Notes: generated from the sequence alone by a model not told the origin. A stretch of DNA of 64,000 nucleotides from Verrucomicrobiales bacterium (GCA_027483345.1 JAIXUV010000208.1:1612-65611), one strand, 5' to 3'. Positions 1,980 through 60,223 are shown, counted from the stretch's first letter. Translations and numbers: made by a program.

Positions 1980-2840
1980 ATGGCCCGAATACCCCAAGGA
2001 AATGCCGGCACGGCGAACATCGGCTTTGAACAGAAGCTGTGGTTGGCGGCGGATAAACTGAGTTCGAACATGGACGCGGCGGAGTACAAGCACGTCGTCC
2101 TTGGCCTGATATTCCTCAAGTACATCTCCGACACCTTCCAGGAACACCGCGCCAAGCTCCTCGCCGGACAAGGAGAGTACGCCGGCGCCAAAGCCGAGGA
2201 CCCGGACGAGTACAAGGCAGAGAACATCTTCTGGGTGCCTTCCGAGGCCCGGTGGGCTCACCTCCAGGCGACCGCCCATCTCCCGGCCATCGGTCGGATC
2301 GTGGACGACGCCATGATCGCCATCGAGCGCGACAACCCAAGGCTCAAGGGAGTGCTTCCAAGAGACTACGCTCGCCCGGCACTCGACAAGCACCGCCTCG
2401 GCGAGCTGATCGACCTCATTGCCACCATCAGCCTCACCGTCGCCAGCGAGGGTGAGAAGACCCATCGTTCCGTCGATCTACTGGGCCGTGTGTACGAGTA
2501 CTTCCTCACCCGCTTCGCCAGCGCCGAGGGCAAGAACGGTGGCCAGTTCTACACGCCGTCTTGCGTCGTGCGCTGCCTCGTCGAGATGCTCGCACCTTAC
2601 AAGGGCCGCATCTACGACTCCGCTTGCGGCTCCGGCGGCATGTTCGTTCAGTCGGAGAAGTTCGTGGAATCCCACGGCGGCAAGATCGGCGACATAAGCA
2701 TCTACGGTCAGGAGAGCAACCCCACCACCCGACGGCTGGCGATCTTGAACCTCGCCATCCGGGGCATCGAGGCGGACTTCGGACCGGAACAGGCGGACAC
2801 CTTCCGCTACGACCTCCCTCAGTTGCGGGCAATCTATTGA
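1980..2840 (+). pseudogene. hsdM: truncated type I R-M methyltransferase subunit (HsdM N-terminal two-thirds, lacks NPPF)
   Basis: Has the HsdM N-domain ([36 protein letters not shown]), [11 protein letters not shown] and AdoMet motif [11 protein letters not shown]. The frame ends ...[15 protein letters not shown] before the NPPF catalytic motif. Composition turns AT-rich at about 2822-2845. Confidence 0.85.
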
Positions 2841-2929
2841 ATGGCTTGCCGTTGATTTAAGCCTGATATCCAATCTGGCTTGGCTATTCGTAGCAAAGTC
2901 TAGCTATTTAAAACAAAGTGATAAAAAAT

Positions 2930-6808: not shown

Positions 6809-8350
6809 ATGCTCAACGGCGAAATTCGCAGTAAAGTTGATGCCCTTTGGAATGCCTTCTGGTCCGGGGGCATAGCCAATCCGCTCGAGGTCATCGAGCA
6901 GATCACGTATCTGCTCTTCTTGAAGCGCTTGGATGATCTCCACACCCTAGAGGAGAACAAGGCGGCGCGCCTGAAACTTCCCCAGCTCGAACGCCGCGTT
7001 TTTCCCGAGGGCAGGGATCCCCGGGGTAGGGACTATTACGATTTCCGGTGGTCCCGCTTCAAACACCTTGAAGCCAAGGAGATGTTCGATGTGGTGAACG
7101 ACCATGTGTTCCCCTTCCTTCGCACGCTCGGTGGTGACAGCTCCACCTACGCGCACCACATGAAGGACGCACGCTTCACCATCCCGACGCCGGCACTGCT
7201 GGCCAAAGTGGTGGATATGATCGACGGCGTGCCCATGGAGGACCGCGATACCAAGGGCGACCTCTACGAGTACATGCTGGGGAAGATCGCCAGCGCCGGG
7301 CAAAACGGGCAGTTCCGCACTCCCCGGCACATCATCCAGCTCATGGTCGAGCTGACCGCGCCGTCCCCGCGGGACGTTATCTGTGATCCCGCCTGTGGCA
7401 CTGCCGGCTTCCTTGTGGCGGCTGGGGAGTACCTGCGCCAGCACCACCCTGGGATTCTCCGCGGCCCCGAACTCAAGGAACACTTCCACCACCACCTGTT
7501 CCATGGATTCGACTTCGACAACACCATGCTCCGCATCGGCAGCATGAATCTGCTGCTGCACGGCGTGGATAATCCCAATATCCGCTACCGCGATTCGCTG
7601 GGACAGGATCACTCGGGAGAGGAGGAGAAGTACACGCTGATCCTAGCCAATCCGCCTTTCGCCGGATCGCTCGACTACGAGAACTGCGCCAAGGACCTCC
7701 AGCAGATCGTGAAGTCGAAGAAGACCGAACTGCTCTTCCTCGCTCTCTTCCTGCGCCTGCTCAAGTCCGGCGGACGCGCCGCTGTCATCGTGCCCGACGG
7801 CGTGCTCTTCGGCTCGTCCAACGCGCACAAGACCCTGCGCCAGATCCTTGTCGAGGAACAGAAGCTGGACGCCGTCATCTCCCTGCCCGGCGGCGTTTTT
7901 AAGCCCTACGCCGGCGTCTCCACCGCCATTCTCCTCTTCACCAAGACCAACTCCGGTGGCACGGACCACGTCTGGTTCTACGATGTGGACGCCGACGGCA
8001 TGTCGCTCGACGACAAACGCACCGAACTACTCCCGCCGGAGAAGCTCGGCCCAGTGCCCAGGACTGCGCTCTCGGCCGACGACCACGCGAAGAACAATCT
8101 GCCCGACATCCTCGCCCGCTGGACGCAGCGCGACCGGGCCGAGCGCCAAAATCCGCGCACCGCACAGAGCTTCTGTGTGCCCAAGGCCGACTTGGCCGCG
8201 CAGGGCTACGACCTCTCGCTCAACCGCTACAAGGAAGTCTTCCACGCCGAAGTCGCGCACCGCCCGCCCGCTGAAATCCTGAAAGCCCTCGGCCAACTGG
8301 AGGCGGTGATTCAGCAGGGCATGAAGGAACTGGAGGAGATGCTGAAGTGA
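6809..8350 (+). CDS. hsdM: type I restriction-modification system methyltransferase subunit M
   Basis: HsdM_N-like start (KVDALWNAFWSGGIANPLEVIEQITYLLFLKRLDD), GQFRTPRHI, motif I DPACGTAGFL and motif IV LANPPFAGS. Its stop overlaps the hsdS start (GTGA at 8347-8350). Confidence 0.95.
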   Translation: MLNGEIRSKVDALWNAFWSGGIANPLEVIEQITYLLFLKRLDDLHTLEENKAARLKLPQLERRVFPEGRDPRGRDYYDFRWSRFKHLEAKEMFDVVNDHVFPFLRTLGGDSSTYAHHMKDARFTIPTPALLAKVVDMIDGVPMEDRDTKGDLYEYMLGKIASAGQNGQFRTPRHIIQLMVELTAPSPRDVICDPACGTAGFLVAAGEYLRQHHPGILRGPELKEHFHHHLFHGFDFDNTMLRIGSMNLLLHGVDNPNIRYRDSLGQDHSGEEEKYTLILANPPFAGSLDYENCAKDLQQIVKSKKTELLFLALFLRLLKSGGRAAVIVPDGVLFGSSNAHKTLRQILVEEQKLDAVISLPGGVFKPYAGVSTAILLFTKTNSGGTDHVWFYDVDADGMSLDDKRTELLPPEKLGPVPRTALSADDHAKNNLPDILARWTQRDRAERQNPRTAQSFCVPKADLAAQGYDLSLNRYKEVFHAEVAHRPPAEILKALGQLEAVIQQGMKELEEMLK

Positions 8351-9444
8351 AATGGAACACTGTAAGATTCGAAGACGGTGTCTATTCTCGCAGCTCCGGC
8401 GCAACTGGTCTGGCTCAAAGCCTTTGGGAAGAAGGCGGGCGCTATCCTGTGATTGGCCAAGGAGCCAAATTCATCGAAGGTAGAACCAACCGCGCAGATC
8501 TTTTGGTCACACCCAATCCAGCCGTCGTTCTTTTCGGTGGGCATACCCGTCGCACAAAATTCGTAGATATCCCGTTTGTACCAGGTCCAAACGTCAAGAT
8601 CCTCGAACCTAAGGGAATTCTAGACGCGAAGTTCCTGTTCTATTTTCTCGAGCAGCTTCCAATCGAGAGCCGCGGCTACGCCGATCACTTTCCTGAAGTT
8701 CGACGGAGTTCAATCCCTGTGCCGACGCTGCTCCAGCAGCGGCGGATTGCGGAGGTGTTGGACCAAGCGGAGGCGTTGCGGGCCAAGCGTCGCGCTGCCC
8801 TCGCCCAACTCGACTCCCTACCCCAATCCCTCTTCCTCGACCTCTTCGGCGACCCAATAGTTAATCCGAAGATGTGGCCACGGAAACAACTCTCCGAAAT
8901 CGGCACACTTGACCGGGGAGTATCCAAGCATCGCCCACGCAACGATCCGGAGCTCTTAAATGGGCCGTATCCCTTGGTGCAGACTGGCGAAGTCGCAAAC
9001 TGCAACGGATACATCCGCGAATACCACAGCACCTATTCCGAAATTGGCCTGCGGCAGAGCAAACTGTGGCCTTCAGGAACTCTTTGTATTACGATTGCTG
9101 CGAACATCGCAAAGACCGGAATTCTAACATTCGACGCATGCTTTCCAGACAGCATCGTGGGATTCCGTGCTGAAGATCCCGCGATGGTAGAGTTCGTGCG
9201 AGGCTGGCTTTCGTTTCTCCAAAAGTCGCTCGAAGACGCCGCTCCCGAATCGGCTCAAAAGAATATCAACTTGGCTCTGTTACGAAACCTCGCGATTCCA
9301 CTTCCCCCAATCGGATTGCAGCGCGAATTCGCCCGGCGAGTGACAGCGGTGGAGGCGCTGAAGTCGGCGCAGCGCGCGTCGCTGGCGGAGCTGGACGCGC
9401 TCTTCGCCACCCTCCAGCACCGCGCCTTCAAAGGAGAACTCTAA
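8347..9444 (+). CDS. hsdS: type I R-M specificity subunit S (two TRDs, two conserved regions)
   Basis: TRD1, then central conserved helix (QQRRIAEVLDQAEALRAKRRAALAQLDSLPQSLFLDLFGDP), then TRD2, then C-terminal conserved helix (LQREFARRVTAVEALKSAQRASLAELDALFATLQHRAF). Translationally coupled to hsdM. Confidence 0.9.
   Translation: MKWNTVRFEDGVYSRSSGATGLAQSLWEEGGRYPVIGQGAKFIEGRTNRADLLVTPNPAVVLFGGHTRRTKFVDIPFVPGPNVKILEPKGILDAKFLFYFLEQLPIESRGYADHFPEVRRSSIPVPTLLQQRRIAEVLDQAEALRAKRRAALAQLDSLPQSLFLDLFGDPIVNPKMWPRKQLSEIGTLDRGVSKHRPRNDPELLNGPYPLVQTGEVANCNGYIREYHSTYSEIGLRQSKLWPSGTLCITIAANIAKTGILTFDACFPDSIVGFRAEDPAMVEFVRGWLSFLQKSLEDAAPESAQKNINLALLRNLAIPLPPIGLQREFARRVTAVEALKSAQRASLAELDALFATLQHRAFKGEL
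9322..9427 (+). repeat. direct repeat copy A (hsdS 3' conserved region)
   Basis: About 105 nt, cgcgaattcgcccggcgagtgacagcggtggaggcgctgaag...ccagcaccgcgcc. Matches 10566-10670 with about 8 mismatches by hand alignment. Confidence 0.85.
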
Positions 9445-9452
9445 ACCAACAA

Positions 9453-10529
9453 ATGAAGCTGCGTTGTTCAAATAAGGAACATGGTTTTGAACCTCTGCTG
9501 GAGAAAATACCGGCTGCTAAGCGAGTCACCATCTTGAGCTATTCGCTCGACGAGAATCCCAAAAGCTATTTGTGGGAAACGTTACACAAACTACCAGCAG
9601 CAAGTGATTTGACGGTCATCACGAATATTCCGGGCAGGTGGGATTCCTACGGTCGAAATCAGACGTCGAAGATGAAGGATCGATTTGATGCATATTTGGA
9701 TAACCTCGCCGCGGAGAAATTTGAATGTGCGTTTGAAGTTTACTTCTCCTTCAATAACCATGCGAAAGTGCTTGTCGTCGATGACATGGCCTACGTCGGC
9801 TCAGCGAATTTCACAGAAGCGTCAGCGCAGAAATGGGAGGCAGGGGTAATCCTCTCCGATAAAAGTGAAGTTGATGAGCTTCAGGCATTCATAAATAGCA
9901 TTCGCGCTTCGTCAATTCCTATGCTCAAGGCTGCCACTTCCAAGGAGGCGCGCCCTCTTCTAAAGCTGCTGCGGTGGAGTTTTGAAATCATCCGCTCTGT
10001 TCGCGAGGAAAATGGTTTCATCCTGTCGGACGATCAACACTGGATCGACGATCCGGAACGGAGTCAAAGAGAAAGCGTCCAGATCTCAGATGGACTAAGA
10101 GCATTCTTGAGCGAGTGCCGAACCGCAGCTGAGGCGTTACTGAAAAGATGTGATGGAGACCAAGAAGTCCTTAACGTAGATATTTTGCTCGATGTAATTG
10201 GTTTCGTCCGCTACTTCGATGAGCAGGATTACAACGATTCTCTCGCGAAACCATTCGATGAATCAGCTCAATCAAGCCACCTAGTCGAAAAGCTGCTTAT
10301 CGAATGTTCCAATGACGCCAACGTGGACGATGTGATGCGCCACCCGGAATACCATGAGCAACTTGAAGCAGCCAGAAGCGCCAGCGAAAAGGAACTGGAT
10401 GGAGCTGTTGTCAAGGCCGTAGACGATCTCGTAAAATACATAGAAAAGACTATCAGTAAATTGCGGAGTTCATTTGGGCCAGAGGATGTCTCACCTGAAA
10501 TCGACAACACCGGAAGCAAGAATAGATGA
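9453..10529 (+). CDS. PLD-family (single HKD) nuclease-like protein with an uncharacterised C-terminal helical region
   Basis: HKD motif NNHAKVLVVDDMAYVGSANFTEAS (HxK-x4-D-x5-GSxN). AT-rich gene: hand counts of single 60-nt lines give about 37-50% GC. Confidence 0.8.
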   Translation: MKLRCSNKEHGFEPLLEKIPAAKRVTILSYSLDENPKSYLWETLHKLPAASDLTVITNIPGRWDSYGRNQTSKMKDRFDAYLDNLAAEKFECAFEVYFSFNNHAKVLVVDDMAYVGSANFTEASAQKWEAGVILSDKSEVDELQAFINSIRASSIPMLKAATSKEARPLLKLLRWSFEIIRSVREENGFILSDDQHWIDDPERSQRESVQISDGLRAFLSECRTAAEALLKRCDGDQEVLNVDILLDVIGFVRYFDEQDYNDSLAKPFDESAQSSHLVEKLLIECSNDANVDDVMRHPEYHEQLEAARSASEKELDGAVVKAVDDLVKYIEKTISKLRSSFGPEDVSPEIDNTGSKNR

Positions 10530-10679
10530 GCAATCTCCCCTCTTCCTCAATCCCAAGCACTTAGGCGCGAACTTGCCCGGCGAGCGACTGCGGTGGAGGT
10601 GTTGAAGTCGGCGCAGCGCGCGTCGCTGGCCGAGCTGGACGCGCTCTTCGCCAACCTCCAGCACCGCGCCCTTAATTGA
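10530..10679 (+). pseudogene. hsdS: orphan remnant of an hsdS 3' end (about 49 codons)
   Basis: Translates to ISPLPQSQALRRELARRATAVEVLKSAQRASLAELDALFANLQHRALN*, paralleling the hsdS tail IPLPPIGLQREFARRVTAVEALKSAQRASLAELDALFATLQHRAF. No TRD or start codon lies upstream. Confidence 0.75.
10566..10670 (+). repeat. direct repeat copy B (hsdS 3' conserved region)
   Basis: Partner of 9322-9427. GC-rich island between two AT-rich genes. Confidence 0.85.
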
Positions 10680-10684
10680 GAATT

Positions 10685-11836
10685 ATGAACCTGTCATCCT
10701 CATGCTTTAAGGACCAAAAACTCCAAAGGCACATTGAGAAAAATGGTAAGGTGGGGAGTTGCGATGGGACGGGAGATAATTATGTGAAGGTGGTTGCGGC
10801 AAATGCTCTCAGTTCGCTATTCAAACCGCTGCTTGATCTGTACGAGCCATTTCGCGGTTCGACTTGGGATTACTTGCATACTCTTTCGGGTAACACATTG
10901 TTTGATTGCATTCAGGACGACGATGGATGGGAGGTTTTTGCTAAAGCCATTTCTCCCGAAGTCGGGTGTCAAATCTTGGATGCAATTCGCGATGTCACCA
11001 GTCCCGACGGAAGTATTCGAAGTGATGAGGAATGGGTTAACAAAAACCAGTTTTATCAGGCGATGCAGCTCGGTTGGTGGGACGCGTTTTCCAAGCAGTT
11101 GAAGCACGCCCGCCGATTCATTCCTGATGTCGGCAATAAAAGCGTGGGTGACCCGCGCAAAGTTCTTTGTGAACACTTGAGCGAGTTCGAGTACCCGCTT
11201 TTAGTGGGCAAGACGCTTTATCGAGCGCGAATCGGGTGGGATGACAAATCGGCGGTTGGACATTCGCTTCCAATCGCCCCCGGCAAAGAAATGGGTGCCC
11301 CTCCACCGGAGAAGGCTACAGCCGGCCGGGCCAATCCTGCAGGCGTGAGCTACTTGTATGTTGCGGAGCAAGAGGCGACGGCGGTGCAAGAAGTGCGAGC
11401 GTACGTCGGCGCAAAAGTTACTGTGGCTAAACTAGAGGTCACCAAACCGTTGAGGTTGGTAAATGTTGCAAAAACAAGGCGCGTTTTCAGTCCATTCCTG
11501 CATCCCAATTTAAAAAATGTTCTGTTTGCTTACGACATCCTTGCTGTGCTCAACGAAAAGCTGTCACGACCAGTTGATCCGAACACAAGCCACCTCGATT
11601 ACCTGCCGACTCAATATCTCGCCGAGGTTGTGTTAGATTACGGCTACGACGGGATTCGATACAAAAGCGCAGTGTCCGAGGATGGAGTCAATGTCGTGGT
11701 TTTTGACCACGGAAAGACTGCTGTTTTTGAAACGAAGCTGATCGAAGTTACGGCTATGAAGCTGAAGTATCGCGACCTCTCTGGCTACTCACGAGGATCG
11801 CCGAAGTCTCGGATGAAATCGAGAAAATCACTATGA
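10685..11836 (+). CDS. RES-domain protein with a 190-aa N-terminal extension
   Basis: RES signature: R in TAGRANPAGVSYLYV, E in AEQEATAVQEVRAY, S in DGIRYKSAVSEDGVNVVVFD. The N-terminal Cys-containing domain is unassigned. AT-rich. The ORF opens at TTG 10676; ATG 10685 is preferred. Confidence 0.8.
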   Translation: MNLSSSCFKDQKLQRHIEKNGKVGSCDGTGDNYVKVVAANALSSLFKPLLDLYEPFRGSTWDYLHTLSGNTLFDCIQDDDGWEVFAKAISPEVGCQILDAIRDVTSPDGSIRSDEEWVNKNQFYQAMQLGWWDAFSKQLKHARRFIPDVGNKSVGDPRKVLCEHLSEFEYPLLVGKTLYRARIGWDDKSAVGHSLPIAPGKEMGAPPPEKATAGRANPAGVSYLYVAEQEATAVQEVRAYVGAKVTVAKLEVTKPLRLVNVAKTRRVFSPFLHPNLKNVLFAYDILAVLNEKLSRPVDPNTSHLDYLPTQYLAEVVLDYGYDGIRYKSAVSEDGVNVVVFDHGKTAVFETKLIEVTAMKLKYRDLSGYSRGSPKSRMKSRKSL

Positions 11837-12348
11837 GAAGCTATGCGCTCAAGCCAGCACTCCAAGCGCTTGAGTTCGATGGCGCGCTGCTCGCGCGGGG
11901 CTTCTGGCTCTACGTTTGGGAAATCACAGCCGGGGACGGTGGCACGGTTCACTACGTGGGCCGAACGGGAGACAGTTCCTCGTCCAACGCGCAGTCGCCT
12001 TTTGCCCGGCTCAGCCAGCACCTCGGGAAAAACCAGAACTCCAACGCGCTCAGGAGGAATCTGGAAAAAGCAAAGGTGGTTCCCGAGGAATGCCAGAAGT
12101 TCCGGCTCTTCGCCTGTGGTCCGATCTTTCCGGAGTCCAAGAGTCGAGACGAACACATGCGGTCGCGTGACAGCGTTGCAGCTCTAGAGAAGGCGCTGGC
12201 GGACGCAATGCGCGCGGCGGGCTACGACATGATGAATGAGGTGCGGTCCCGCAAGACTCCTGACCGTCAGTTGTGGCAAGTGGTCGTTGGCACCTTTGGG
12301 GCGCGGTTTCCAAAGCTCCAAAATCTGCCCTCGCCCTGCGATTCGTGA
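11833..12348 (+). CDS. GIY-YIG nuclease-like protein
   Basis: FWLYVWEITAGDGGTVHYVGRTGD resembles the UvrC-type GIY...YVG motif. It is followed by a conserved Arg (FARLSQHL) and a Glu helix (VAALEKALADAMRAAGYDMMNE). ATGA overlap with the upstream RES gene; GTGA overlap with the downstream RES gene. Confidence 0.6.
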   Translation: MRSYALKPALQALEFDGALLARGFWLYVWEITAGDGGTVHYVGRTGDSSSSNAQSPFARLSQHLGKNQNSNALRRNLEKAKVVPEECQKFRLFACGPIFPESKSRDEHMRSRDSVAALEKALADAMRAAGYDMMNEVRSRKTPDRQLWQVVVGTFGARFPKLQNLPSPCDS

Positions 12349-12941
12349 CCAAGTTCCACCCCAACCCACGGTTCCGAGAGTTCCGCGACCTCCTTGCGGC
12401 AAACACGGACCTGTTCCAGCCGTGGTCCGGCACTCTGTTCCGGTTCCAAGCGGTGGATTTTCCCGCCCCGGAGGACGTGCTGAGCGGTGCGGGCGCGAAA
12501 TGGCGTGGCGGACACTGGAACCCGCCCGGAGTGCCGACACTCTACGGCAGCACCACGGACACGGCGGCCCTAGAGGAGGGCAAGGCGAACGACCGCTATG
12601 CCGGGATCGTTACCCGTTGTCCCCGCCTGTTGGTGGCGGTGGAAGCCCGTTTGGAACGAGTTCTGGACCTCGGCGCCGCTCTGGTGCGACGTCGGCTCGG
12701 CCTGAAACTGGTGGAGTTGCTGGCAGGGGACTGGCGGAAGCTGACGGATGCGGGCCAGGAGAGCCTGACCCAAGGCATGGGCCGGGCAGTCTACGTGGCG
12801 GGCGGAAGCGGCCTCCTCGCGCGATCCGCGGCCTGCAATGGCGGGGTCAATGTCGTGGTGTTCCCCGGCAATCTCCGACCGGGAGAAAGCCTGGCGGTGG
12901 TGGAGGAGGGGAAGCTGCGCAGGCTGACCCGTGGAAAATGA
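12345..12941 (+). CDS. RES-family toxin (RES-Xre type)
   Basis: SGAGAKWRGGHWNPPGVPTLYGSTTDTAALEE and GLLARSAACNGGVNVVVF match the RES-domain layout. GTG 12345 overlaps the preceding stop. The track ORF opens at ATG 12273, which would overlap the previous gene by 76 nt. Confidence 0.75.
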   Translation: MTKFHPNPRFREFRDLLAANTDLFQPWSGTLFRFQAVDFPAPEDVLSGAGAKWRGGHWNPPGVPTLYGSTTDTAALEEGKANDRYAGIVTRCPRLLVAVEARLERVLDLGAALVRRRLGLKLVELLAGDWRKLTDAGQESLTQGMGRAVYVAGGSGLLARSAACNGGVNVVVFPGNLRPGESLAVVEEGKLRRLTRGK

Positions 12942-13386
12942 AATTGTTACCTGCAAAAGTGCAGGTTATGTTGCGAGCAGTGTTATGCGTACCGTTGCCA
13001 AGCCAAAGAACGTCGCCGGAAGCCTGACCCAATTCCGGTTCAGCCATCGTGGAGCCGGGGACTTCTCCCAGCTCATGCGGGTCTATCGGGAGAAGTTCCA
13101 TCTCGCCCAGCCGGTGGTGGTGCGGTTGACCGGTTTTTCGCCGCGTTCGGTGGCCAAATGGGCGCAGGGCGAGACGCCGTCGCAGAAGCAGGAGAAGGCC
13201 CTGGTGGAGATGGACCGGTTGCTGGACGGCTTGGCGCGGGTGATGGAAGCCCAGGAGATCGGTCGCTGGATGACCACGGCCAACCCCGCGTTCGATGGTT
13301 CGACCCCGGCGCAGGTGGTCGAGCGGGGTGAAGCCGACCGCATCTGGCGCATGCTTTATGACGTGGAGTCAGGTCAGCCGGGCTGA
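12931..13386 (+). CDS. Xre/MbcA/ParS-like antitoxin (DUF2384 C-terminal domain)
   Basis: The C-terminus IGRWMTTANPAFDGSTPAQVVERGEADRIWRMLYDVESG is typical of the DUF2384 toxin-binding domain. The N-terminal part (LTGFSPRSVAKWAQGE) is HTH-like. The start is GTG 12931 (overlapping the RES stop) or ATG 12985. Confidence 0.8.
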   Translation: MENEIVTCKSAGYVASSVMRTVAKPKNVAGSLTQFRFSHRGAGDFSQLMRVYREKFHLAQPVVVRLTGFSPRSVAKWAQGETPSQKQEKALVEMDRLLDGLARVMEAQEIGRWMTTANPAFDGSTPAQVVERGEADRIWRMLYDVESGQPG

Positions 13387-13491: not shown

Positions 13492-14445
13492 GTGCAACGG
13501 ATTCTAAGTCATCACCTCTGGCGGGAAATCTCTGCCAGGTCGACAAAAGCCAAGCGACGCCAGGCTGCCATCGCATACGTCACCGAGGACCTTCTTCGCT
13601 TCAAGCGGGGTGACCTGTTGGTGACCGATGCCTCCAGGGCGGCAATCCGTTCGGGCGAGACCAGCGCTAAGCTCCTGGCGACTTTGTTGCGGCGGGGTGT
13701 GCGGGTGCATTCCTGCGCAGGCCTGCATGCCAAGGCCATCCTGCTCGACGAGGTGGCTGTGATCGGTTCGGGCAACATGTCGCGGGCTTCACGTTCCACC
13801 CTGATTGAAGCGGCTGTGATGACCGACGCCCCTTCGACCGTCAGCGGGGTTGCTTCGCTGATTGCCCAGCTCGCTCAACAGTCACCCGAACTGGACCGTG
13901 ACGCCGTGGCTGGTCTTTGCGCGATCAAGGTGGTTCGCCGTGGCGGGCCGAACGTCGTGGCAAAACGCAACCTTCAGCCAAAGATAAAGCCTCTTGGACA
14001 CAATGCGTGGCTGGTGGCGGTGCATGAATTCGACGAGGATTTGGTTCGAAAGGAACAGAGGTTGGTGGAAGCGACGATGGCGGAGTTGGTTCAACGGCAT
14101 GGCTGTCGGGCGGATTCCATCGGATGGATCCGATGGGACGGCGCTGGCCCCTTTCTGAAGGCGGGTAAACCCGGTGATCGCATCATTCAGGTCTACAGCC
14201 GGAAGGACGGCTCAAGGCCGGTGTCAGTCCTTAAGTCAGTTGCCGTCCTGGATCGCAAGCGCCGGGCTGGAACAACGTTTGTCTTCGTGGCGCAACCGTC
14301 TGGACGAAGGCCAGAGATGTCCTTCGCGAACTTCAATCGGTTCTTGAAAAAACTCGGTGTGGGGCGACCGCCAGGGGCAACCACGGAACGCCTGCTTGAT
14401 CCCAGCCTTGCCGATTCCATTTCAAGTGGATGGAACTCGGCCTAA
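13492..14445 (+). CDS. PLD-family (single HKD) nuclease-like protein
   Basis: HKD motif GLHAKAILLDEVAVIGSGNMS in the N-terminal 130 aa. The C-terminal 180 aa are unassigned. GTG start. Confidence 0.8.
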   Translation: MQRILSHHLWREISARSTKAKRRQAAIAYVTEDLLRFKRGDLLVTDASRAAIRSGETSAKLLATLLRRGVRVHSCAGLHAKAILLDEVAVIGSGNMSRASRSTLIEAAVMTDAPSTVSGVASLIAQLAQQSPELDRDAVAGLCAIKVVRRGGPNVVAKRNLQPKIKPLGHNAWLVAVHEFDEDLVRKEQRLVEATMAELVQRHGCRADSIGWIRWDGAGPFLKAGKPGDRIIQVYSRKDGSRPVSVLKSVAVLDRKRRAGTTFVFVAQPSGRRPEMSFANFNRFLKKLGVGRPPGATTERLLDPSLADSISSGWNSA

Positions 14446-14475
14446 TCCGCAACCTCCGGCTTCTGCCGAGTCGCA

Positions 14476-16206
14476 ATGCAACAACAGAACATCCCGATCA
14501 GCTCGCTGGTGGACATGTATAAATCCGGTGGACTGCGGCTGCCCGAGATTCAGCGGCATTACGTGTGGCGTTCGACCCGCGTGCGCGACTTGCTGGATTC
14601 TCTGTATCGGGGTTATCCCAGTGGCTCGATCCTGATGTGGGAGACGGACGAGCCGGTGCCCACACGTGACGGGGCCATCGCCCAGGACACTACGGCGTTC
14701 GCCGGCCGGAAGCTGCTGCTCGACGGCCAGCAGCGTATCACCTCGCTCACTGCCGTGCTGAACGGGGAACCGGTAAGAGTTCGAGGCAGGCAGCGCCCCA
14801 TAGACATTCTCTTCAACCTGGAGCATCGCGAAGGACCTCCCACCGAGGTGACGGACGTGGAAGGTGACCAAGACTTTCCCATGACGCCCGGCGATGAGGA
14901 GAGCGATGAGTCCGAGGAGGTCGGGGTCGGCGAGGCGGCTGTCGCAGAGCGCTTCAAGGACTCCACGTTTGTCGTGGCGAGTCGCGCCTTGCAGTCCCAA
15001 CCCCAATGGGTTTCGGTTAGTGAGGTCTTCCGGACCGCGAGTGACTCAACAATTCTCAAGAAGTCCGGCGTGGTCTCCTTCGACGATCCGCGATTCCAGA
15101 AGTATTCCGAGCGCCTGAATCGCCTCCGACAGATCGCCCGTTATCAGTACGTGGTCCACGTGCTGGAGCGTTCGATGAATTACCAGGAAGTGACCGAGAT
15201 TTTCGTCCGGGTGAACTCCCTTGGAGCCAAGCTTCGGTCGTCAGATCTGGCTCTTGCCCAGATGACCTCCCGCTGGCCAAACCTGCTCAAGGAATTGGAA
15301 GCCTTCCAAGAGGAATGCGAGCAGAGCTGGTTCACCATCGACCAGGGGCAACTGGTGCGGGCCGTTGTGGTCTTCGCCACCCACCAGTGCCTTTTCCACA
15401 CGGTGGGGAAGACCCCGATTTCAGACCTGAAGCAGGGATGGGCGGAAGCCAAGGAGGGCCTCCGATTCGCCATCAACTTCCTGCGTAGCAACGCCGGGAT
15501 CGAGGACGAAACGCTGCTATCATCGCCCATGTTCATCCATGTGTTGGCTGCGATCAGCCGCAAGAAGGACAACCGGTTGAGCCAGGCCGAGCAGAATTCG
15601 CTGCTTCACTGGCTGCTGGTGGCCAATGCGCGGGGACACTTCTCCCGCGGCTCGTCAGAGACCGTGCTGAACGAGGATCTGGCCATCGTTTTCCGCAGCG
15701 GCCAAGTGAGCGCCTTGTTGGACCCATTGAAGCGCCAGTTCGGGCGACTGCATATCGAGCCAGATGACCTCGCGAACCGGGGAGCCAACAGCCCGTTGTT
15801 CTCCCTAGCCTATCTGGCTCTGAAGGCGGGTGGGGCGAAGGACTGGTTCAGCGGGCTGGGGCTGTCGCTCACCCACCAGGGAAAGCTCCACTTCATCCAG
15901 TGGCACCACATCTTTCCCAAGTCCTTGCTCAAAGAGCGTCGATACGAAACAGGCGAGATCAACGAGATCGCCAACATGGCCTTCATCTCCGGCCAGACCA
16001 ATCGTCGAATCAGCAACAAGGAACCATCGGAATATCTCGCGGGCATCGTCGCCGATCAAGGGCAGCAGGCCCTCGACAGCCAGTTGGTTCCAACAGATCC
16101 AGCTTTGCTCCAAATGGACAAGTACCGCGAGTTCCTTCGGGTTCGCCGAGTATTGCTCGCCCAGAGGATGAACGAGTTCATCCAGGAGAATTCCGGAATG
16201 GCATGA
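14476..16206 (+). CDS. GmrSD/BrxU-like type IV restriction enzyme (DUF262 + DUF1524)
   Basis: N-terminal DUF262 motifs (LPEIQRHYVW, DGQQRITSL). C-terminal His-Me finger (IQWHHIFPKSLL ... NMAFISGQTNRRISNK). Confidence 0.9.
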   Translation: MQQQNIPISSLVDMYKSGGLRLPEIQRHYVWRSTRVRDLLDSLYRGYPSGSILMWETDEPVPTRDGAIAQDTTAFAGRKLLLDGQQRITSLTAVLNGEPVRVRGRQRPIDILFNLEHREGPPTEVTDVEGDQDFPMTPGDEESDESEEVGVGEAAVAERFKDSTFVVASRALQSQPQWVSVSEVFRTASDSTILKKSGVVSFDDPRFQKYSERLNRLRQIARYQYVVHVLERSMNYQEVTEIFVRVNSLGAKLRSSDLALAQMTSRWPNLLKELEAFQEECEQSWFTIDQGQLVRAVVVFATHQCLFHTVGKTPISDLKQGWAEAKEGLRFAINFLRSNAGIEDETLLSSPMFIHVLAAISRKKDNRLSQAEQNSLLHWLLVANARGHFSRGSSETVLNEDLAIVFRSGQVSALLDPLKRQFGRLHIEPDDLANRGANSPLFSLAYLALKAGGAKDWFSGLGLSLTHQGKLHFIQWHHIFPKSLLKERRYETGEINEIANMAFISGQTNRRISNKEPSEYLAGIVADQGQQALDSQLVPTDPALLQMDKYREFLRVRRVLLAQRMNEFIQENSGMA

Positions 16207-16415
16207 AGCGGATGAGTCCACCGACTCTCAACTCTTGACCGGGAATCCGCGAGGGGACACTGCGTGATCTTCCCGCCATCCTTGCCGGCTGAGGAAAGAA
16301 GACGTCGCTGGATCAGGCTTCAAAACGATTACTCGACCGGCAAAATCATTATTTTGAGGGGGCATTCGATCAATTCTGTTACAAGCCCGTCCGGCCGTTT
16401 CGCCGGCCCAGACTC

Positions 16416-19400
16416 ATGAGCCAGTTCGCCTTCCTGAAATCTGAATGGCCCGAGCTGTACGAGGCTGCGTCGAAGGCCGAGTCCTTGGCCTTTCCCGATG
16501 CGCGGACGGCCTGCTTCCACGCGCGGAGGGCGTTGGAGCTGTTGGTGCATTGGCTCTATCGACACGATGCCGGGTTGAAGCTCCCGTATCAGGACAACCT
16601 CAGCGCGTTGCTCCACGAGCCGACCTTCAAGGCCACTGCGGGAGAGGCGGTTTTTGCCAAGACAGTGCTGATCAATCGGCTAGGCAATGGCGCGGTGCAT
16701 GGGCATCGCCCGGTGCCCGAGATCGATTCGCTGACGGCGGTCCGCGAGCTGTTCCATGTCGCCTATTGGCTGGCACACACGTACGGGCGCGGAACGAAGC
16801 CACCGCCGGGACTGTTCTTCGATCCGAAGGGGCTCCCGAAGTCCACGACCCTTCCAAATCAGAGTCTCGAGCAGCTTCAACGGCTGGAGACGGAACTGCG
16901 CGACCGGGACCAGAAGCTGTCGGAGTTGTTTGCGGACAAGACCGAGCTGGATGCCGAACTGACGCGCCTTCGGGGTGAAATTGCCGCGGCAAAAAAGGCC
17001 AACACGGCGCAGGCCGACACCCACAACTATTCCGAGGCCGAGACGCGGGACTGCTTCATCGACCTGCTGCTCCGGGAGGCTGGGTGGCCGCTCAACCAGG
17101 AACGCGACCGGGAGTTTCCGGTCGACGGGATGCCGAACAACGAGGGCAGGGGATTCGTGGACTACGTGCTCTGGGGAGACGACGGGCTCCCTTTGGCGCT
17201 GGTGGAAGCCAAGCGCACCCAGCGCGACCCGCGCATAGGCCAGCAGCAGGCCAAGCTCTATGCGGACTGCCTGGAGAAGCAGTTCCGTCGTCGTCCGGTC
17301 CTCTTCTATACGAACGGCTACGAGCATTGGATGTGGGACAGCGCCAACCATCCGCCCCGGGCCGTGCAGGGATTCTTCAAGAAGTCGGAGCTGGAGCTGA
17401 TGATCCAGAGGCGAACGACCCGCAAGAGCTTGGCGACTGCGAAGATCAACGAAACGATTGTCGGTCGCTATTACCAGACCCGGGCCATCCGGCGAATCGG
17501 GGAGGCCTTCGAGAAGGACCACGACCGAAAAGCATTGGTCGTGATGGCGACCGGCGCGGGCAAAACGCGGACGGTCATCGCCTTGGCCGATCTGCTTATG
17601 CGCTGCAATTGGGCCAAGCGCGTGCTGTTCCTCGCCGACCGGGTGGCGCTGGTGAACCAGGCGGTTAACGCCTTCAAAAAGCACCTAACCGAATCGTCGC
17701 CGGTGAACCTGGTCACCGAGAAAGACATCGAGGGCCGGGTGTATGTCTCGACCTATCCGACGATGATGGGCCTGATCGATGAGACCCGGGACGGCCAGCG
17801 GCGTTTTGGAGTCGGTCACTTCGACCTGATCATCATCGACGAGGCGCACCGCTCGGTCTTCCAGAAGTACCGGGCCATCTTCGCCTACTTCGATTCGCTG
17901 CTCGTGGGATTGACTGCGACACCCAAGGACGAGGTCGACCGCAACACGTACGGCCTGTTCGATCTGGAAGACGGTGTGCCGACGGATGCCTATCCGTTGG
18001 AGGACGCGGTGGCCGACCATTTCCTCGTGCCGCCCAAGGCGGTTTCCGTGTCCCTGAAGTTCCCCCGCGACGGCATCCGATACGACGAGCTGTCTGAAGA
18101 GGAGAAGGAGGAATGGGACGCCAAGGAGTGGGATGATGACGGGGCGGTTCCCAGCCAGGTCGAAGCCGAGGCGGTCAACAAGTGGCTCTTCAACCAGGAT
18201 ACGGTGGACAAGGTGCTGGAGCACCTGATGACCCATGGCTTGAAGGTTGCGGGCGGGGATCGGCTCGGGAAAACCATCGTCTTCGCCAAGAACAACGCCC
18301 ATGCGGAGTTCATCGCCCAGCGGTTCAACGCCAACTATCCGCACTACAAGGGGGAGTTCGCGCGGGTCATCACTTTCAAAACGGAGTACGCACAGACCCT
18401 GATCGATCAGTTTTCGATCCGGGACAGGTCACCTCACATCGCCATTTCCGTGGACATGCTCGACACGGGCATCGACGTGCCGGAAGTGGTGAACCTGGTG
18501 TTCTTCAAGCTCGTGCGGTCGAAAACCAAGTTTTGGCAGATGCTGGGGCGGGGGACGCGGCTTTGTCCGGACCTCTTCGGACCGGACCAGCACAAGGAGT
18601 TCTTCTTCGTCTTCGACTACTGCCAGAACCTGGAGTTCTTTAGCCAGAACCCGGATTCGACCGAGGGAGCCTTGGGAGAGTCGTTGGGCAAGCGGCTGTT
18701 CAAGGCGCGGCTGGAGGTCATTGGCGAACTGGACCGCAAGCTGGCCGGGGTTGCTGGAGAAAGGAAGGAACCTGAACAGTACCTGCGTAGTGATGTCGCG
18801 GCGTTGCTGCAGGTTGAAGTCGCCGCGATGAATCTAGACAACTTCGTCGTGCGTCCCAAGCGGCGGCTGGTCGAACGCTACTCCAAGCCGGAATCCTGGC
18901 GGGACCTGAGCGTGGAATCCTTTCACGAGTTGGCCCAGGAAGTCGCCGGTCTGCCGACGGAGCTGGAGCCGGAAGACGAGGAAGCGAAACGGTTCGACCT
19001 GCTTCTGCTACACCTTCAACTCGCTGTACTACGGGCCGAGCCCGCCTTCGCGAGATTGCGGGATCAGGTCCGGGCCGTCGCCGGTTTGCTGGAAGAGAAG
19101 TCCGGTATTCCGATGGTTCACGAGCAGTTGCCGCTGATCCAGGACATCCAAACCGACGAGTGGTGGGAAGACGTCACCACACCGATGTTGGAAAACGTCC
19201 GGAGGCGGCTGCGTTCCCTGGTGAAGTTCATCGATAAGCGGCACCGCAAGCCCATTTACACGAACTTCGAGGATGTGATGGGCCCGGCGACCACGGTGGG
19301 ATTGCCGGGATTCGCGCCCCACGACACGTTTGAGAAGTTCCGGGACAAGGCGCGTGTTTTCTTGAGGGAGCATCAGGAACACCTGGCCATCCATCGGCTG

Positions 19401-19796
19401 CGGACGAATCAGCCATTGACCGCGTTGGACCTGTCGGAACTGGAGCGGATGTTCCGGGAGAGCGGGGTGGCGAGTCCGAAGCAGTTGCAGCGGGCGAAGG
19501 ACGAATCCGAAGGGCTGGGTTTGTTCGTCCGGTCTTTGATTGGGATGGACCGTGAAGCGGCGAAGCTGGCTTTCAGCGAGTTCACCGCCGGGAGGACCTT
19601 GAGCGCGAACCAGATCGAGTTCGTGAACCTGATGGTGGACCACCTGACCGAGCACGGCGCCATGAAGCCCGAGTTGCTCTACGAGTCCCCGTTCACCGAT
19701 CTCAATCCGCAGGGACCCGAAGGCGTCTTCAGTTCCTCGCAGGTGGACCAGTTGTTGGAGCTGCTCTCCCGGGTCCGGACGCGGGCGGTGGCCTGA
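16416..19796 (+). CDS. hsdR: type I restriction endonuclease subunit R
   Basis: N-terminal DUF4145-like region. PD-(D/E)xK (GFVDYVLWGDDGLPLALVEAKR). Helicase motifs VMATGAGKTRT, IIIDEAHRS, GLTATP, QMLGRGTR. C-terminal EcoEI_R_C-like tail (LSANQIEFVNLMVDHLTEHG). Confidence 0.95.
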   Translation: MSQFAFLKSEWPELYEAASKAESLAFPDARTACFHARRALELLVHWLYRHDAGLKLPYQDNLSALLHEPTFKATAGEAVFAKTVLINRLGNGAVHGHRPVPEIDSLTAVRELFHVAYWLAHTYGRGTKPPPGLFFDPKGLPKSTTLPNQSLEQLQRLETELRDRDQKLSELFADKTELDAELTRLRGEIAAAKKANTAQADTHNYSEAETRDCFIDLLLREAGWPLNQERDREFPVDGMPNNEGRGFVDYVLWGDDGLPLALVEAKRTQRDPRIGQQQAKLYADCLEKQFRRRPVLFYTNGYEHWMWDSANHPPRAVQGFFKKSELELMIQRRTTRKSLATAKINETIVGRYYQTRAIRRIGEAFEKDHDRKALVVMATGAGKTRTVIALADLLMRCNWAKRVLFLADRVALVNQAVNAFKKHLTESSPVNLVTEKDIEGRVYVSTYPTMMGLIDETRDGQRRFGVGHFDLIIIDEAHRSVFQKYRAIFAYFDSLLVGLTATPKDEVDRNTYGLFDLEDGVPTDAYPLEDAVADHFLVPPKAVSVSLKFPRDGIRYDELSEEEKEEWDAKEWDDDGAVPSQVEAEAVNKWLFNQDTVDKVLEHLMTHGLKVAGGDRLGKTIVFAKNNAHAEFIAQRFNANYPHYKGEFARVITFKTEYAQTLIDQFSIRDRSPHIAISVDMLDTGIDVPEVVNLVFFKLVRSKTKFWQMLGRGTRLCPDLFGPDQHKEFFFVFDYCQNLEFFSQNPDSTEGALGESLGKRLFKARLEVIGELDRKLAGVAGERKEPEQYLRSDVAALLQVEVAAMNLDNFVVRPKRRLVERYSKPESWRDLSVESFHELAQEVAGLPTELEPEDEEAKRFDLLLLHLQLAVLRAEPAFARLRDQVRAVAGLLEEKSGIPMVHEQLPLIQDIQTDEWWEDVTTPMLENVRRRLRSLVKFIDKRHRKPIYTNFEDVMGPATTVGLPGFAPHDTFEKFRDKARVFLREHQEHLAIHRLRTNQPLTALDLSELERMFRESGVASPKQLQRAKDESEGLGLFVRSLIGMDREAAKLAFSEFTAGRTLSANQIEFVNLMVDHLTEHGAMKPELLYESPFTDLNPQGPEGVFSSSQVDQLLELLSRVRTRAVA

Positions 19797-60131: not shown

Positions 60132-60223
<92 letters not shown>

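What the first reader, a model, noticed from the sequence alone, without database searches (positions are those of the whole stretch)
10685..13386. Four overlapping genes: long RES protein / GIY-YIG nuclease / short RES toxin / DUF2384 antitoxin
All junctions are start-stop overlaps: ATGA at 11833-11836, GTGA at 12345-12348, and GTG 12931 eleven nt before the RES stop. This implies one translationally coupled unit with two different RES-domain proteins.

Three things are unusual:
- The antitoxin follows the short RES toxin. In the characterised RES-Xre/MbcTA/ParST-type operons as I recall them, the antitoxin comes first.
- A GIY-YIG nuclease-like ORF sits between the two RES genes and has no obvious cognate partner.
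- The long RES protein carries a 190-aa N-terminal domain (starting CFKDQKLQRHIEKNGKVGSC) of unknown role, and no adjacent antitoxin-like gene is recognisable.

A sharp GC step also falls exactly at the ATGA junction at 11833, so the coupling of the long RES gene to the GIY-YIG gene may be a recent fusion of two modules.
Basis: partly seen in the sequence, partly recalled or inferred. Interest (0 to 1): 0.65.

Follow-up and report, generated by a model that had tools for sequence, protein, structure and literature searches.

The report
Stacked defence genes inside a restriction operon
The four genes are not one system but three separate cargo modules (a stand-alone NAD-destroying defence protein, an uncharacterised small nuclease-like protein, and a toxin-first toxin/antitoxin pair) stacked in the known cargo slot between the specificity and nuclease genes of a type I restriction-modification operon.

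Summary
The genes and two of the three start-stop overlaps are real: ATGA at 11833 and GTGA at 12345. The third is not supported. Relatives put the antitoxin start at ATG 12985, after a 43-nt spacer holding a conserved palindrome. The block lies in a type I R-M operon, between hsdS (8347-9444) and hsdR (16416-19796), beside two PLD genes and a GmrSD gene.

- **Long RES (10685-11836):** fits the aRES family described in 2026, a stand-alone HEPN/RES-NTD1 + RES antiphage NAD+ phosphorylase. That explains the missing antitoxin.
- **171-aa ORF (11833-12348):** belongs to a large unannotated family. In 32 of 80 genomes it sits between hsdM/S and hsdR, and never with a short RES or Xre gene. GIY-YIG fails Pfam thresholds, but three weak independent signals support it.
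- **Short RES + Xre:** a subfamily with conserved toxin-first order. Here the toxin has a private R57H change at the catalytic-triad arginine.

Related operons with the same backbone carry these modules in other combinations. hsdS 3' remnants mark several of the cassette junctions. The GC step at 11833 is real and marks a recombination joint.

Verdict: a mosaic of known kinds, with one uncharacterised R-M-linked family worth testing.

The parts
6809..9444 (+). hsdM (6809-8350) and hsdS (8347-9444) of the host type I R-M operon, with a 4-nt overlap
   Evidence: ORFs. Identical contigs carry Pfam Methylase_S. hsdM is 88% identical to the L178 hsdM, which has N6_Mtase/HsdM_N.
9453..10529 (+). PLD-family (DrmC-like) cargo gene, low GC (0.48). 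It is context, not part of the four genes.
   Evidence: Pfam PLDc_2 2.4e-9, with weak PADLOC DrmC hits. GC.
10560..10677 (+). hsdS 3' remnant: about 39 codons, 81% identical to the hsdS C-terminus, closed by a premature stop. It marks the left boundary of the long-RES cassette.
   Evidence: Direct repeat 9321-9447 / 10565-10691 at 88%. tblastn E 1.4e-15. DNA alignment with the L178 hsdS end shows the same hsdS-end/ATGAACCTG junction.
10685..11836 (+). Long RES protein (383 aa): HEPN/RES-NTD1 + RES, aRES-type stand-alone NAD+ phosphorylase. Low GC (0.50).
   Evidence: Pfam RES 2.4e-17. Homologues carry PF08808+PF18870. The NTD scores 106 bits, E 9e-35, against an HMM of PF18870-positive NTDs. 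R180/R182, R215, E236 and S328 are invariant in 35 sequences. aRES definition.
11833..12348 (+). ORF171: a member of a large unannotated family linked to type I R-M operons, probably with a GIY-YIG-like fold
   Evidence: 1710 homologues, no Pfam. 696 clusters at 50% identity. 32 of 80 genome loci lie between hsdM/S and hsdR. AF2 pLDDT 90. GIY-YIG evidence.
12345..12941 (+). Short RES toxin (198 aa, GTG start overlapping the ORF171 stop) with a private R57H substitution at the R of the R-E-S triad
   Evidence: Pfam RES 2.6e-15. Profile hit to MbcT 6fkg at E 7e-12, aligning GG[R/H]WN with MbcT R47. All 23 compared homologues have R.
12944..12979 (+). Conserved intercistronic element: TTGTTA (12944-49), palindrome CCTGCA-AAAG-TGCAGG (12950-65), TATGTT (12967-72), and a third TGC..GCA box (12971-79). 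Candidate promoter/operator for the antitoxin gene.
   Evidence: Alignment of 7 loci with 22 invariant columns and symmetric CCCGCA..TGCGGG changes in L173/L174. Unique in the window, 0.01 expected by chance. Found only in the RES-Xre spacer of each locus.
12985..13386 (+). Xre-family antitoxin (133 aa): HTH plus MbcA/ParS C-terminal toxin-binding domain
   Evidence: Pfam PF09722 E 2e-5, 24.9 bits (cut-off 24.5). NCBIfam Xre_ParS_antitoxin E 3.3e-6, below cut-off. Start inferred from relatives.
13492..19796 (+). Rest of the operon: PLD-like gene (13492-14445), GmrSD/HEC-05-like type IV restriction gene (14476-16206), hsdR (16416-19796)
   Evidence: Pfam and PADLOC. Pfam HSDR_N/ResIII/EcoEI_R_C on the identical contig.

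Best explanation
The four genes are three independent cargo modules. Recombination has stacked them in the hsdS-hsdR slot of a type I restriction-modification operon, and they are probably expressed by read-through from that operon.

1. **Long RES = aRES-type protein.** It is a single-gene abortive-infection effector. By analogy with tested aRES proteins it stays inactive until phage infection. It then phosphorolyses NAD+ to nicotinamide and ADPR-1''-phosphate and arrests growth. This is why it has no antitoxin.

2. **ORF171.** It belongs to a widespread family whose usual home is directly after hsdS and/or directly before hsdR. This is the position PrrC occupies. It probably has a divergent GIY-YIG-like nuclease fold. 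I infer it is a single-gene effector or accessory of type I R-M, not a partner of either RES protein.

3. **Short RES + Xre = toxin-first RES/Xre toxin-antitoxin pair.**
   - The promoterless toxin gene is translated from a weak GTG start that overlaps the upstream stop.
   - The antitoxin gene follows a conserved 38-84 nt spacer. Its palindrome sits between -35-like and -10-like hexamers. I infer this is an Xre-bound operator and internal promoter that keeps antitoxin in excess.
   - In this genome the toxin carries R57H at the triad arginine, so it is probably attenuated.

What is shown: domain identities, independent distribution of the modules, conserved gene order, the conserved spacer element, the private substitution, the hsdS remnants and the GC step.

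What is inferred: all activities, the promoter/operator role and the role of ORF171.
For: **Context**
- hsdM-hsdS-PLD-hsdS'-longRES-ORF171-RES-Xre-PLD-GmrSD-hsdR all lie on one strand.
- Defence systems embedded between hsdS and hsdR are established: TgvAB, DarTG2, and the guilt-by-embedding survey with PrrC.

**Modularity**
- Operons with the same backbone (hsdM 88%, hsdR 76% identical) carry hsdS-aRES-hsdS'-GmrSD-Fic (L178) and DUF3800-hsdS'-ORF171-RES-Xre-hsdR (L179).
- Of 80 ORF171 loci, 39 have hsd genes, 32 lie between hsdM/S and hsdR, 0 have a short RES or Xre, and 1 has a long RES.
- RES-Xre pairs occur after a type IIG R-M gene, after RhuM, and next to AbiEi and an integrase, without ORF171.

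**Cassette joints**
- hsdS 3' remnants occur in the window, L074, L178 and L179 and in L171.
- The hsdS-end/long-RES junction is the same in the window and L178.
- GC is 0.50 for the long RES and 0.60-0.67 for its neighbours.

**aRES**
- and the paper.

**ORF171 fold**
- PF01541 is the commonest weak hit: 8 of 40 members, best E 0.06.
- hhalign against a verified GIY-YIG alignment gives P 6.8e-4, versus 0.095-0.54 for four unrelated alignments. It aligns W29/Y41/G43/R59/H63 with I-TevI Y6/Y17/G19/R27/H31.
- The top Foldseek BFVD hits are Seg-type GIY-YIG homing endonucleases, prob 0.92-0.94.
- Some family members are fused to HEPN_AbiV.

**TA pair**
- Toxin-first order in 6 distinct loci.
- Conserved spacer element.
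- MbcT alignment. MbcT R47A is non-toxic.
Against: - ORF171-RES-Xre recurs as a block in L179, so a functional link among these three is not excluded.
- The GIY-YIG assignment is below every significance threshold: hhalign probability is only 27%, Foldseek against PDB found nothing, and BFVD TM-scores are 0.35-0.39 with high rmsd.
- PF18870 scores only 16.6 bits directly on the window protein, against a cut-off of 27.4. The window protein has also lost 2 of the 4 N-terminal cysteines conserved in the family.
- Of distant long-RES relatives with enough flank, 44 of 51 are not stand-alone. They sit in sce7726-sce7725-RES operons.
- The spacer hexamers match only 8 of 12 consensus positions, and the consensus scan did not call them.
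- The same palindrome can form an RNA hairpin followed by a T-rich tract, but its folding z-score is only -1.4.
- No expression or activity data exist for any gene.
Confidence: 0.75

Rival explanations
1. One reading: the four genes form one integrated, translationally coupled system. Two RES effectors and a nuclease would be controlled together, with the single Xre protein as their common antitoxin or regulator.
For: There are two 4-nt overlaps and all genes lie on one strand with no convincing internal promoter or terminator. The identical four-gene block occurs on four independent assemblies.
Against: Those four assemblies are 100% identical, so they are probably the same organism. Every module is found without the others in other genomes. 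The long RES/ORF171 joint coincides with a GC step and is absent from the closest long-RES relative, L178. aRES proteins defend as single genes. Overlaps of the same kind join unrelated genes throughout these operons.
Confidence: 0.06
2. ORF171 + short RES + Xre form a three-gene unit. The GIY-YIG-like protein would be a second effector or a sensor of the TA pair. Only the long RES is an independent neighbour.
For: The same three genes, in the same order, occur in L179 at 67%, 73% and 82% identity, preceded by an hsdS remnant. In the window the RES start overlaps the ORF171 stop. The RES gene has no conserved upstream region of its own.
Against: L179 shares the R-M backbone (hsdR 76%), so the adjacency may simply be inherited. 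None of 80 other ORF171 loci has this RES or Xre. Five other RES-Xre contexts lack ORF171. The ORF171/RES junction is not conserved: an 8-nt gap in L179 and an overlap here.
Confidence: 0.1
3. The array is largely a decaying remnant. The short RES would be inactivated by R57H, the long RES would have a degraded zinc-binding motif, and fragments of hsdS and hsdM nearby would indicate a locus in erosion with no current function for the block.
For: R57H is private to this genome, and the equivalent MbcT R47A is non-toxic. Two of four conserved cysteines are lost. There is an hsdS remnant at 10560-10677 and an hsdM 5' fragment at 1932-2840.
Against: All four reading frames are intact and of family-typical length. 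The long RES keeps every invariant RES residue. The cysteine loss is shared by a whole subclade, P0122-P0127, so it is not a recent defect. The Xre protein and the spacer element are strongly conserved.
Confidence: 0.08

Closest known systems
aRES (antiphage RES-domain protein; Osterman et al., bioRxiv 10.64898/2026.01.28.702374)
   Same: The long RES has the defining two-domain architecture, PF18870 NTD + PF08808 RES. At 383 aa it falls in the 300-600 aa range. It lies in a defence island next to R-M genes, has no antitoxin gene, and keeps all RES triad residues.
   Different: It is embedded inside a type I R-M operon, directly after an hsdS 3' end. Its subclade has lost 2 of the 4 N-terminal cysteines. 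PF18870 is detectable only through homologues. The tested aRES proteins are enterobacterial, and identity to them could not be measured here.
RES-Xre type II toxin-antitoxin systems (MbcTA, ParST, P. putida Xre-RES, NatRT)
   Same: The RES toxin aligns with MbcT and ParT over the NAD+ pocket. The antitoxin has an HTH plus the MbcA/ParS C-terminal toxin-binding domain. A palindrome lies next to the antitoxin gene, as in the Xre-RES operator of P. putida.
   Different: The toxin gene comes first. No conserved promoter lies upstream of the pair, and the conserved palindrome lies between the two genes. Both proteins score far below the NCBIfam ParT/ParS subfamily cut-offs. This copy has R57H.
Defence genes embedded between hsdS and hsdR of type I R-M operons (PrrC, TgvAB, DarTG2; 'guilt by embedding')
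   Same: The slot and orientation are the same, and the genes are tightly packed or overlapping. A GmrSD-type gene is present as in TgvAB, and a TA pair as in DarTG2.
   Different: Six cargo genes are stacked here. hsdS 3' remnants between cassettes give a visible trace of how the stacking occurred. I did not find this described.
GIY-YIG nucleases (I-TevI and Seg homing endonucleases, UvrC N-domain, SLX1)
   Same: ORF171 has the order strand-strand-helix-helix-strand-helix. Its conserved residues have I-TevI-like spacing: R-x3-H, and E-x15-N against E-x14-N in I-TevI (I-TevI positions are from my own knowledge). It also gives weak profile and fold hits.
   Different: There is no significant sequence or PDB fold match. 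A 15-residue conserved insert (TGDSSSxNAQSPF) lies between the YVG motif and the Arg. Trp aligns with the GIY tyrosine. No DNA-binding domain is present, and conservation across phyla is unusually high (50-70%).

Membership tests
aRES | RES domain (PF08808; the paper prints it as PF00808) | tested here: met
   hmmscan E 2.4e-17, 63.8 bits against a cut-off of 23.2, residues 210-347.
aRES | HEPN/RES N-terminal domain 1 (PF18870), which the authors detected by hhsearch at >80% probability | tested here: inconclusive
   The direct hmmscan gives only 16.6 bits against a cut-off of 27.4. However, the NTD scores 106 bits, E 9e-35, against an HMM of the NTDs of 12 homologues that carry PF18870. BLASTP of the NTD against P0151 gives E 7e-22. 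The authors' exact hhsearch test could not be run.
aRES | Length 300-600 aa, stand-alone gene in a defence island | tested here: met
   383 aa. No antitoxin-like neighbour here or in L178. Flanked by R-M, PLD and GmrSD genes.
aRES | Phage-triggered NAD+ depletion producing ADPR-1''-phosphate, and protection from phage | not testable with these tools
   Experimental property.
RES-Xre type II TA | RES toxin with an intact R-E-S triad | tested here: not met
   The RES domain is present (E 2.6e-15), and E77/E78 and S161 are present. The triad Arg is His in this copy: GGHWN versus GGRWN in all 23 compared homologues. It aligns with MbcT R47.
RES-Xre type II TA | Adjacent Xre antitoxin with an HTH and the MbcA/ParS C-terminal toxin-binding domain | tested here: met
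   PF09722 at 24.9 bits against a cut-off of 24.5. HTH_31 and MqsA-type HTH give weak hits. The partner is conserved in all 6 distinct loci.
RES-Xre type II TA | Antitoxin gene upstream of toxin gene, as in the characterised members | tested here: not met
   Toxin comes first in the window and in all 6 distinct relatives. The order in MbcTA, ParST and Xre-RES is from my own knowledge of those systems.
RES-Xre type II TA | NCBIfam ParT/ParS subfamily membership | tested here: not met
   Res_ParT_toxin scores 25.9 bits against a cut-off of 110. Xre_ParS_antitoxin scores 27.2 against 90.
GIY-YIG nuclease superfamily (ORF171) | Significant match to a GIY-YIG profile | tested here: not met
   No Pfam, NCBIfam or PADLOC hit for the window protein. 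PF01541 appears only weakly, in 8 of 40 members with best E 0.06. hhalign gives P 6.8e-4 but probability 27%.
GIY-YIG nuclease superfamily (ORF171) | Conserved catalytic set: Tyr (GIY), Tyr-x-Gly (YIG), Arg, His/Lys, Glu, Asn, in order | tested here: inconclusive
   Y27/W29, Y41, G43, R59, H63 and E119 are invariant, and N135 is present in >=90% of 40 sequences. The N-terminal five align with the I-TevI residues. The Glu/Asn half was not aligned by any tool.
GIY-YIG nuclease superfamily (ORF171) | GIY-YIG fold | tested here: inconclusive
   The model has pLDDT 90 with b-b-a-a-b-a order. PDB Foldseek found nothing at E<1. The BFVD top three hits are homing endonucleases, prob 0.92-0.94, E 0.008-0.023, TM 0.35-0.39.
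Type I R-M-embedded defence cargo | Located between hsdS and hsdR, same strand | tested here: met
   Window gene map. For the ORF171 family, 32 of 80 genomes.

The most novel reading that the evidence does not exclude
ORF171 would define a new, widespread single-gene partner of type I restriction-modification systems. It would be a GIY-YIG-like nuclease made together with the Hsd subunits. Like PrrC, it would be held silent by the intact R-M complex and released when a phage anti-restriction protein disables that complex. A more speculative alternative is that it nicks near the conserved hsdS 3' end and so drives the cassette exchange that makes the hsdS-hsdR gap a cargo hotspot. The hsdS 3' remnants at cassette joints would then be the scars of that process.
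Probability: 0.15. Interest if true: 0.75.

Novelty: new variant of a known kind. Interest (0 to 1): 0.45.

Why it matters
- **The main oddity is explained.** A long RES protein without an antitoxin is the recently described aRES defence. This places an aRES member inside a type I R-M operon in an environmental, probably verrucomicrobial, genome.
- **The block is a clear example of how defence cargo accumulates between hsdS and hsdR.** The same backbone carries different cassette sets. Leftover hsdS 3' ends at several joints point to recombination at the conserved hsdS end as the stacking mechanism.
- **Two items are testable and not described in the literature I could search:**
  - A large unannotated protein family (at least 1,700 sequences, in 243 species-representative genomes across many phyla) whose preferred home is the PrrC position of type I R-M operons.
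  - A RES-Xre subfamily with fixed toxin-first order and a conserved palindrome between the genes. This suggests a different regulatory logic from the characterised antitoxin-first systems.

Tried and rejected
- **Pfam, NCBIfam and PADLOC on ORF171:** no hits.
- **Profile search of ORF171 against PDB sequences:** only chance hits.
- **Foldseek of the ORF171 model against PDB:** nothing below E 1.
- **Representative-library search with the ORF171 profile**, meant to reach annotated distant relatives. Only the best 150 hits (all E < 1e-30) are listed, so the distant tail could not be inspected. It did give a family size and some fusion proteins.
- **A conserved partner of ORF171.** Downstream neighbours are heterogeneous (PLD x10, Fic x3, GmrSD x3 and others). 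Upstream non-Hsd neighbours have no common family.
- **Conserved promoter or operator upstream of the short RES gene.** Nothing is conserved beyond about 10 nt before the start codon.
- **Consensus promoter/terminator scan of 6-20.5 kb.** It found fewer sites than in shuffles and none at the module borders.
- **RNA hairpin reading of the spacer palindrome.** The z-score is only -1.4, so it is kept as an alternative but not favoured.
- **tblastn of the short RES against PLSDB plasmids:** no match. The gene order could therefore not be checked on annotated plasmids.
- **Literature search for a GIY-YIG gene linked to hsdS/hsdR:** nothing relevant.
- **Homing-endonuclease idea for ORF171.** The hsdS remnants precede different cargo genes (aRES, GmrSD, ORF171, RES), not ORF171 specifically. 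There is no specific support.


Full report
**1. Observation**

The region holds four same-strand ORFs.

- The long RES gene runs 10685-11836. Its 70%-identical relative in L178 begins MNLSKFCF at the equivalent ATG, so ATG 10685 is preferred over TTG 10676.
- ORF171 runs 11833-12348, and its ATG overlaps the long-RES stop as ATGA.
- The short RES gene runs 12345-12941, and its GTG overlaps the ORF171 stop as GTGA. This start gives 198 aa. Homologues are 197-201 aa, and the closest one (85%) also starts with V.
- The Xre gene ends at 13386.

- Gene calls on identical contigs and on all relatives give a 133-136 aa protein starting at the ATG equivalent to 12985.
- Two relatives have in-frame stops 5 and 13 codons upstream of that ATG.
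- The intervening 43 nt are conserved as non-coding sequence.

The GC step is real. GC is 0.50 (GC3 0.53) for the long RES, 0.60 for ORF171 and 0.67 for the short RES. The window average is 0.64.

**2. Context**

The block lies inside a type I R-M operon:

| Coordinates | Feature |
|---|---|
| 6809-8350 | hsdM |
| 8347-9444 | hsdS |
| 9453-10529 | PLD/DrmC-like gene |
| 10560-10677 | hsdS 3' remnant |
| 10685-13386 | the four genes |
| 13492-14445 | second PLD-like gene |
| 14476-16206 | GmrSD/HEC-05-like gene |
| 16416-19796 | hsdR |

Embedding of defence systems between hsdS and hsdR is established. Examples are TgvAB in V. cholerae, DarTG2 in EPEC, and PrrC together with the 'guilt-by-embedding' survey.

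**3. The long RES protein**

- Pfam RES scores E 2.4e-17. HEPN_RES_NTD1 scores only 16.6 bits directly.
- Full-length homologues of about 360 aa carry PF08808 plus PF18870.
- The window's N-terminal 177 residues score 106 bits (E 9e-35) against an HMM built from the N-terminal domains of 12 PF18870-positive homologues. BLASTP against one of them gives E 7e-22.
- In a 35-sequence alignment, R180, R182, R215 (GRANP), E236 and S328 are invariant.

This is the architecture that defines aRES. aRES is a stand-alone antiphage protein that depletes NAD+ on infection by phosphorolysis to nicotinamide and ADPR-1''-phosphate (Osterman et al. 2026). That accounts for the missing antitoxin and for the 'unknown' N-terminal domain.

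Two caveats apply.

- The window protein and its nearest relatives have lost two of the four N-terminal cysteines (CCxxC...CxxC) conserved in the rest of the family.
- Among more distant relatives (28-33% identity), 44 of 51 loci with enough flank place the RES gene third in a conserved sce7726-sce7725-RES operon.

The closest relative, L178, sits directly after hsdS with an ATGA overlap.

**4. ORF171**

It is a real, strongly conserved gene. There are 1710 homologues at E <= 1e-3, typically 50-70% identical across Verrucomicrobiota, Acidobacteriota, Chloroflexota, Actinomycetota and Proteobacteria. They form 696 clusters at 50% identity. No Pfam, NCBIfam or PADLOC family matches.

Neighbourhoods in 80 species-representative genomes:

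- 39 have hsd genes within 8 kb.
- 32 place ORF171 between hsdM/S and hsdR.
- The gene often overlaps hsdS and/or hsdR by 4 nt. In several loci it is the only embedded gene (L017, L027, L037).
- None has the short RES or Xre. One has a long RES elsewhere in the locus.
- Other contexts are large helicases, GmrSD genes and SMC-like ATPases.
- Downstream neighbours vary: PLD, Fic, GmrSD, AbiEi and others.
- A few family members are fused to HEPN_AbiV.

On GIY-YIG, the call fails at significance, but three independent weak signals agree.

- PF01541 is the most frequent sub-threshold Pfam hit: 8 of 40 members, best E 0.06.
- hhalign against a small GIY-YIG alignment gives P 6.8e-4. I verified that alignment against I-TevI, UvrC and SLX1 structures. 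Four unrelated alignments give P 0.095-0.54. The GIY-YIG comparison aligns W29/Y41/G43/R59/H63 with I-TevI Y6/Y17/G19/R27/H31.
- The AF2 model (pLDDT 90, order b-b-a-a-b-a) finds nothing in PDB. In BFVD its best hits are Seg-type homing endonucleases, with prob 0.92-0.94, E 0.008-0.023 and TM 0.35-0.39.

I rate a GIY-YIG-like fold at about 0.65.

**5. Short RES and Xre**

- The RES domain scores E 2.6e-15. A family profile hits MbcT (6fkg, E 7e-12) and ParT.
- The Xre protein has an HTH plus the MbcA/ParS C-terminal domain, just above the Pfam cut-off.
- Both proteins are far below the NCBIfam ParT/ParS subfamily cut-offs.
- In six distinct loci with 59-74% identical toxins, the order is always RES, then a 38-84 nt spacer, then Xre.

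The spacer holds a conserved element:

- The consensus is TTG-N3-CCTGCA-N4-TGCAGG-TTA-N2-TTGCAGGCA-N5-ATG.
- In the window it reads TTGTTA, then 17 nt containing the palindrome, then TATGTT.
- L173 and L174 carry symmetric changes (CCCGCA...TGCGGG).
- The element is unique in the window, with 0.01 matches expected by chance. In each locus it occurs only in this spacer.
- Nothing is conserved upstream of the toxin gene beyond about 10 nt.

I infer an internal, Xre-regulated promoter for the antitoxin. This is in the manner of other toxin-first pairs and of the palindromic Xre-RES operator of P. putida. A weak hairpin/attenuator reading is not excluded.

The window toxin reads GGHWN where all 23 compared homologues read GGRWN. 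This arginine aligns with MbcT R47, the R of R-E-S, and MbcT R47A is non-toxic. The toxin here is therefore probably attenuated. The same sequence occurs in three independent assemblies, so it is unlikely to be an assembly error.

**6. Are the genes one unit?**

Related operons with the same backbone (hsdM 88%, hsdR 76% identical) carry the modules in different combinations:

- L178: hsdM-hsdS-aRES-hsdS'-GmrSD-Fic-hsdR
- L179: DUF3800-hsdS'-ORF171-RES-Xre-hsdR

So the long RES/ORF171 joint is specific to the window lineage. This fits the GC step. It also fits a 5-residue N-terminal extension (MRSYA) that ORF171 has here relative to its family.

hsdS 3' remnants ('...LAELDALFATLQHRxFxGEL') sit at cassette joints in the window, L074, L178 and L179. 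A fused hsdM'/hsdS' relic lies upstream of RES in L171. The last ~130 nt of hsdS align at DNA level between the intact genes and the remnants, with a nearly identical core of about 40 nt.

The simplest reading is that cassettes are exchanged and stacked by recombination at the conserved hsdS end. ORF171-RES-Xre does recur as a block in L179, but on an orthologous backbone, so it is not independent evidence for a functional link.

**7. Verdict**

The interpretation as a single coupled system is not supported. The block is a mosaic of three things:

- an aRES-type protein (a known kind, new member and context);
- an uncharacterised type I R-M-linked family that is probably GIY-YIG-like;
- a toxin-first RES-Xre variant with a mutated toxin.

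All activities are inferred. Nothing was measured.

Noticed in passing
window 10560-10677; L178 4620-4769; L179 2180-2314; L074 135-263; L171 3717-4004: Remnants of the hsdS 3' end sit between embedded cargo genes in several type I R-M operons. Each remnant lies immediately upstream of a different cargo gene: aRES, GmrSD, ORF171 or RES. The last ~130 nt of hsdS align at DNA level between the intact genes and the remnants, with a nearly identical core of about 40 nt. This suggests the cassettes are stacked by recombination at the hsdS end.
   Followed up: partly
L097-L167 (e.g. L113 4120-7023, L127 4181-7074): Distant relatives of the long RES (28-33% identity) are not stand-alone. In 44 of 51 metagenome loci with enough flank, they are the third gene of a conserved operon: sce7726-family (~300 aa), sce7725-family (~313 aa), then HEPN/RES-NTD1-RES-like. 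Some of these operons are themselves embedded after hsdS (L113, L121).
   Followed up: partly
window 1932-2840 and 2918-6652: Immediately upstream of the intact hsdM lies a 5' fragment of a different hsdM (HsdM_N plus the first third of N6_Mtase). After it comes a low-GC (0.51) 1244-aa gene encoding WD40 repeats, a Roc/Ras-like GTPase and a calcineurin-like phosphoesterase. The aRES paper mentions calcineurin-domain NAD+ cleavage in the Metis system. Whether this gene is related was not tested.
   Followed up: no
window 10685-10780 (long RES residues 1-30): The N-terminal CCxxC...CxxC motif conserved in most of the long-RES family is reduced to two cysteines in the window protein. It is also reduced in its nearest relatives (P0122, P0124-P0127). 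This subclade has probably lost metal binding in the N-terminal domain.
   Followed up: partly
proteins P0283 and P0294: Some members of the ORF171 family are fused at their C-terminus to a HEPN_AbiV domain. This links the family to abortive-infection-type effectors.
   Followed up: no
window 9453-10529, 13492-14445, 14476-16206: The same hsdS-hsdR gap also holds two different PLD-family genes (weak DrmC-like hits) and a GmrSD/HEC-05-like type IV restriction gene. That makes six cargo genes in one type I R-M operon.
   Followed up: partly
L088/L090 (e.g. L090 4467-10291): The 36%-identical long-RES relative lies after hsdS with a different gene set. Upstream is a PDC-M68A-like endonuclease/receiver-domain protein. 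Downstream are a 341-aa unknown, an MBL-fold protein (LmuA/ComEC-like hits) and a 299-aa unknown.
   Followed up: no
window 13340-13386 (Xre C-terminus): The last residues of the antitoxin (…DRIWRMLYDVESGQPG) are nearly identical in all relatives examined. They are more conserved than the toxin. This fits a C-terminal plug of the toxin active site, as described for MbcA.
   Followed up: no
window 25040-27937 and 60132-60220: infB (IF-2) lies about 5 kb downstream of hsdR, and a tRNA-Ser(GGA) lies at 60.1 kb. No integrase or tRNA was seen at the borders of the R-M island.
   Followed up: no
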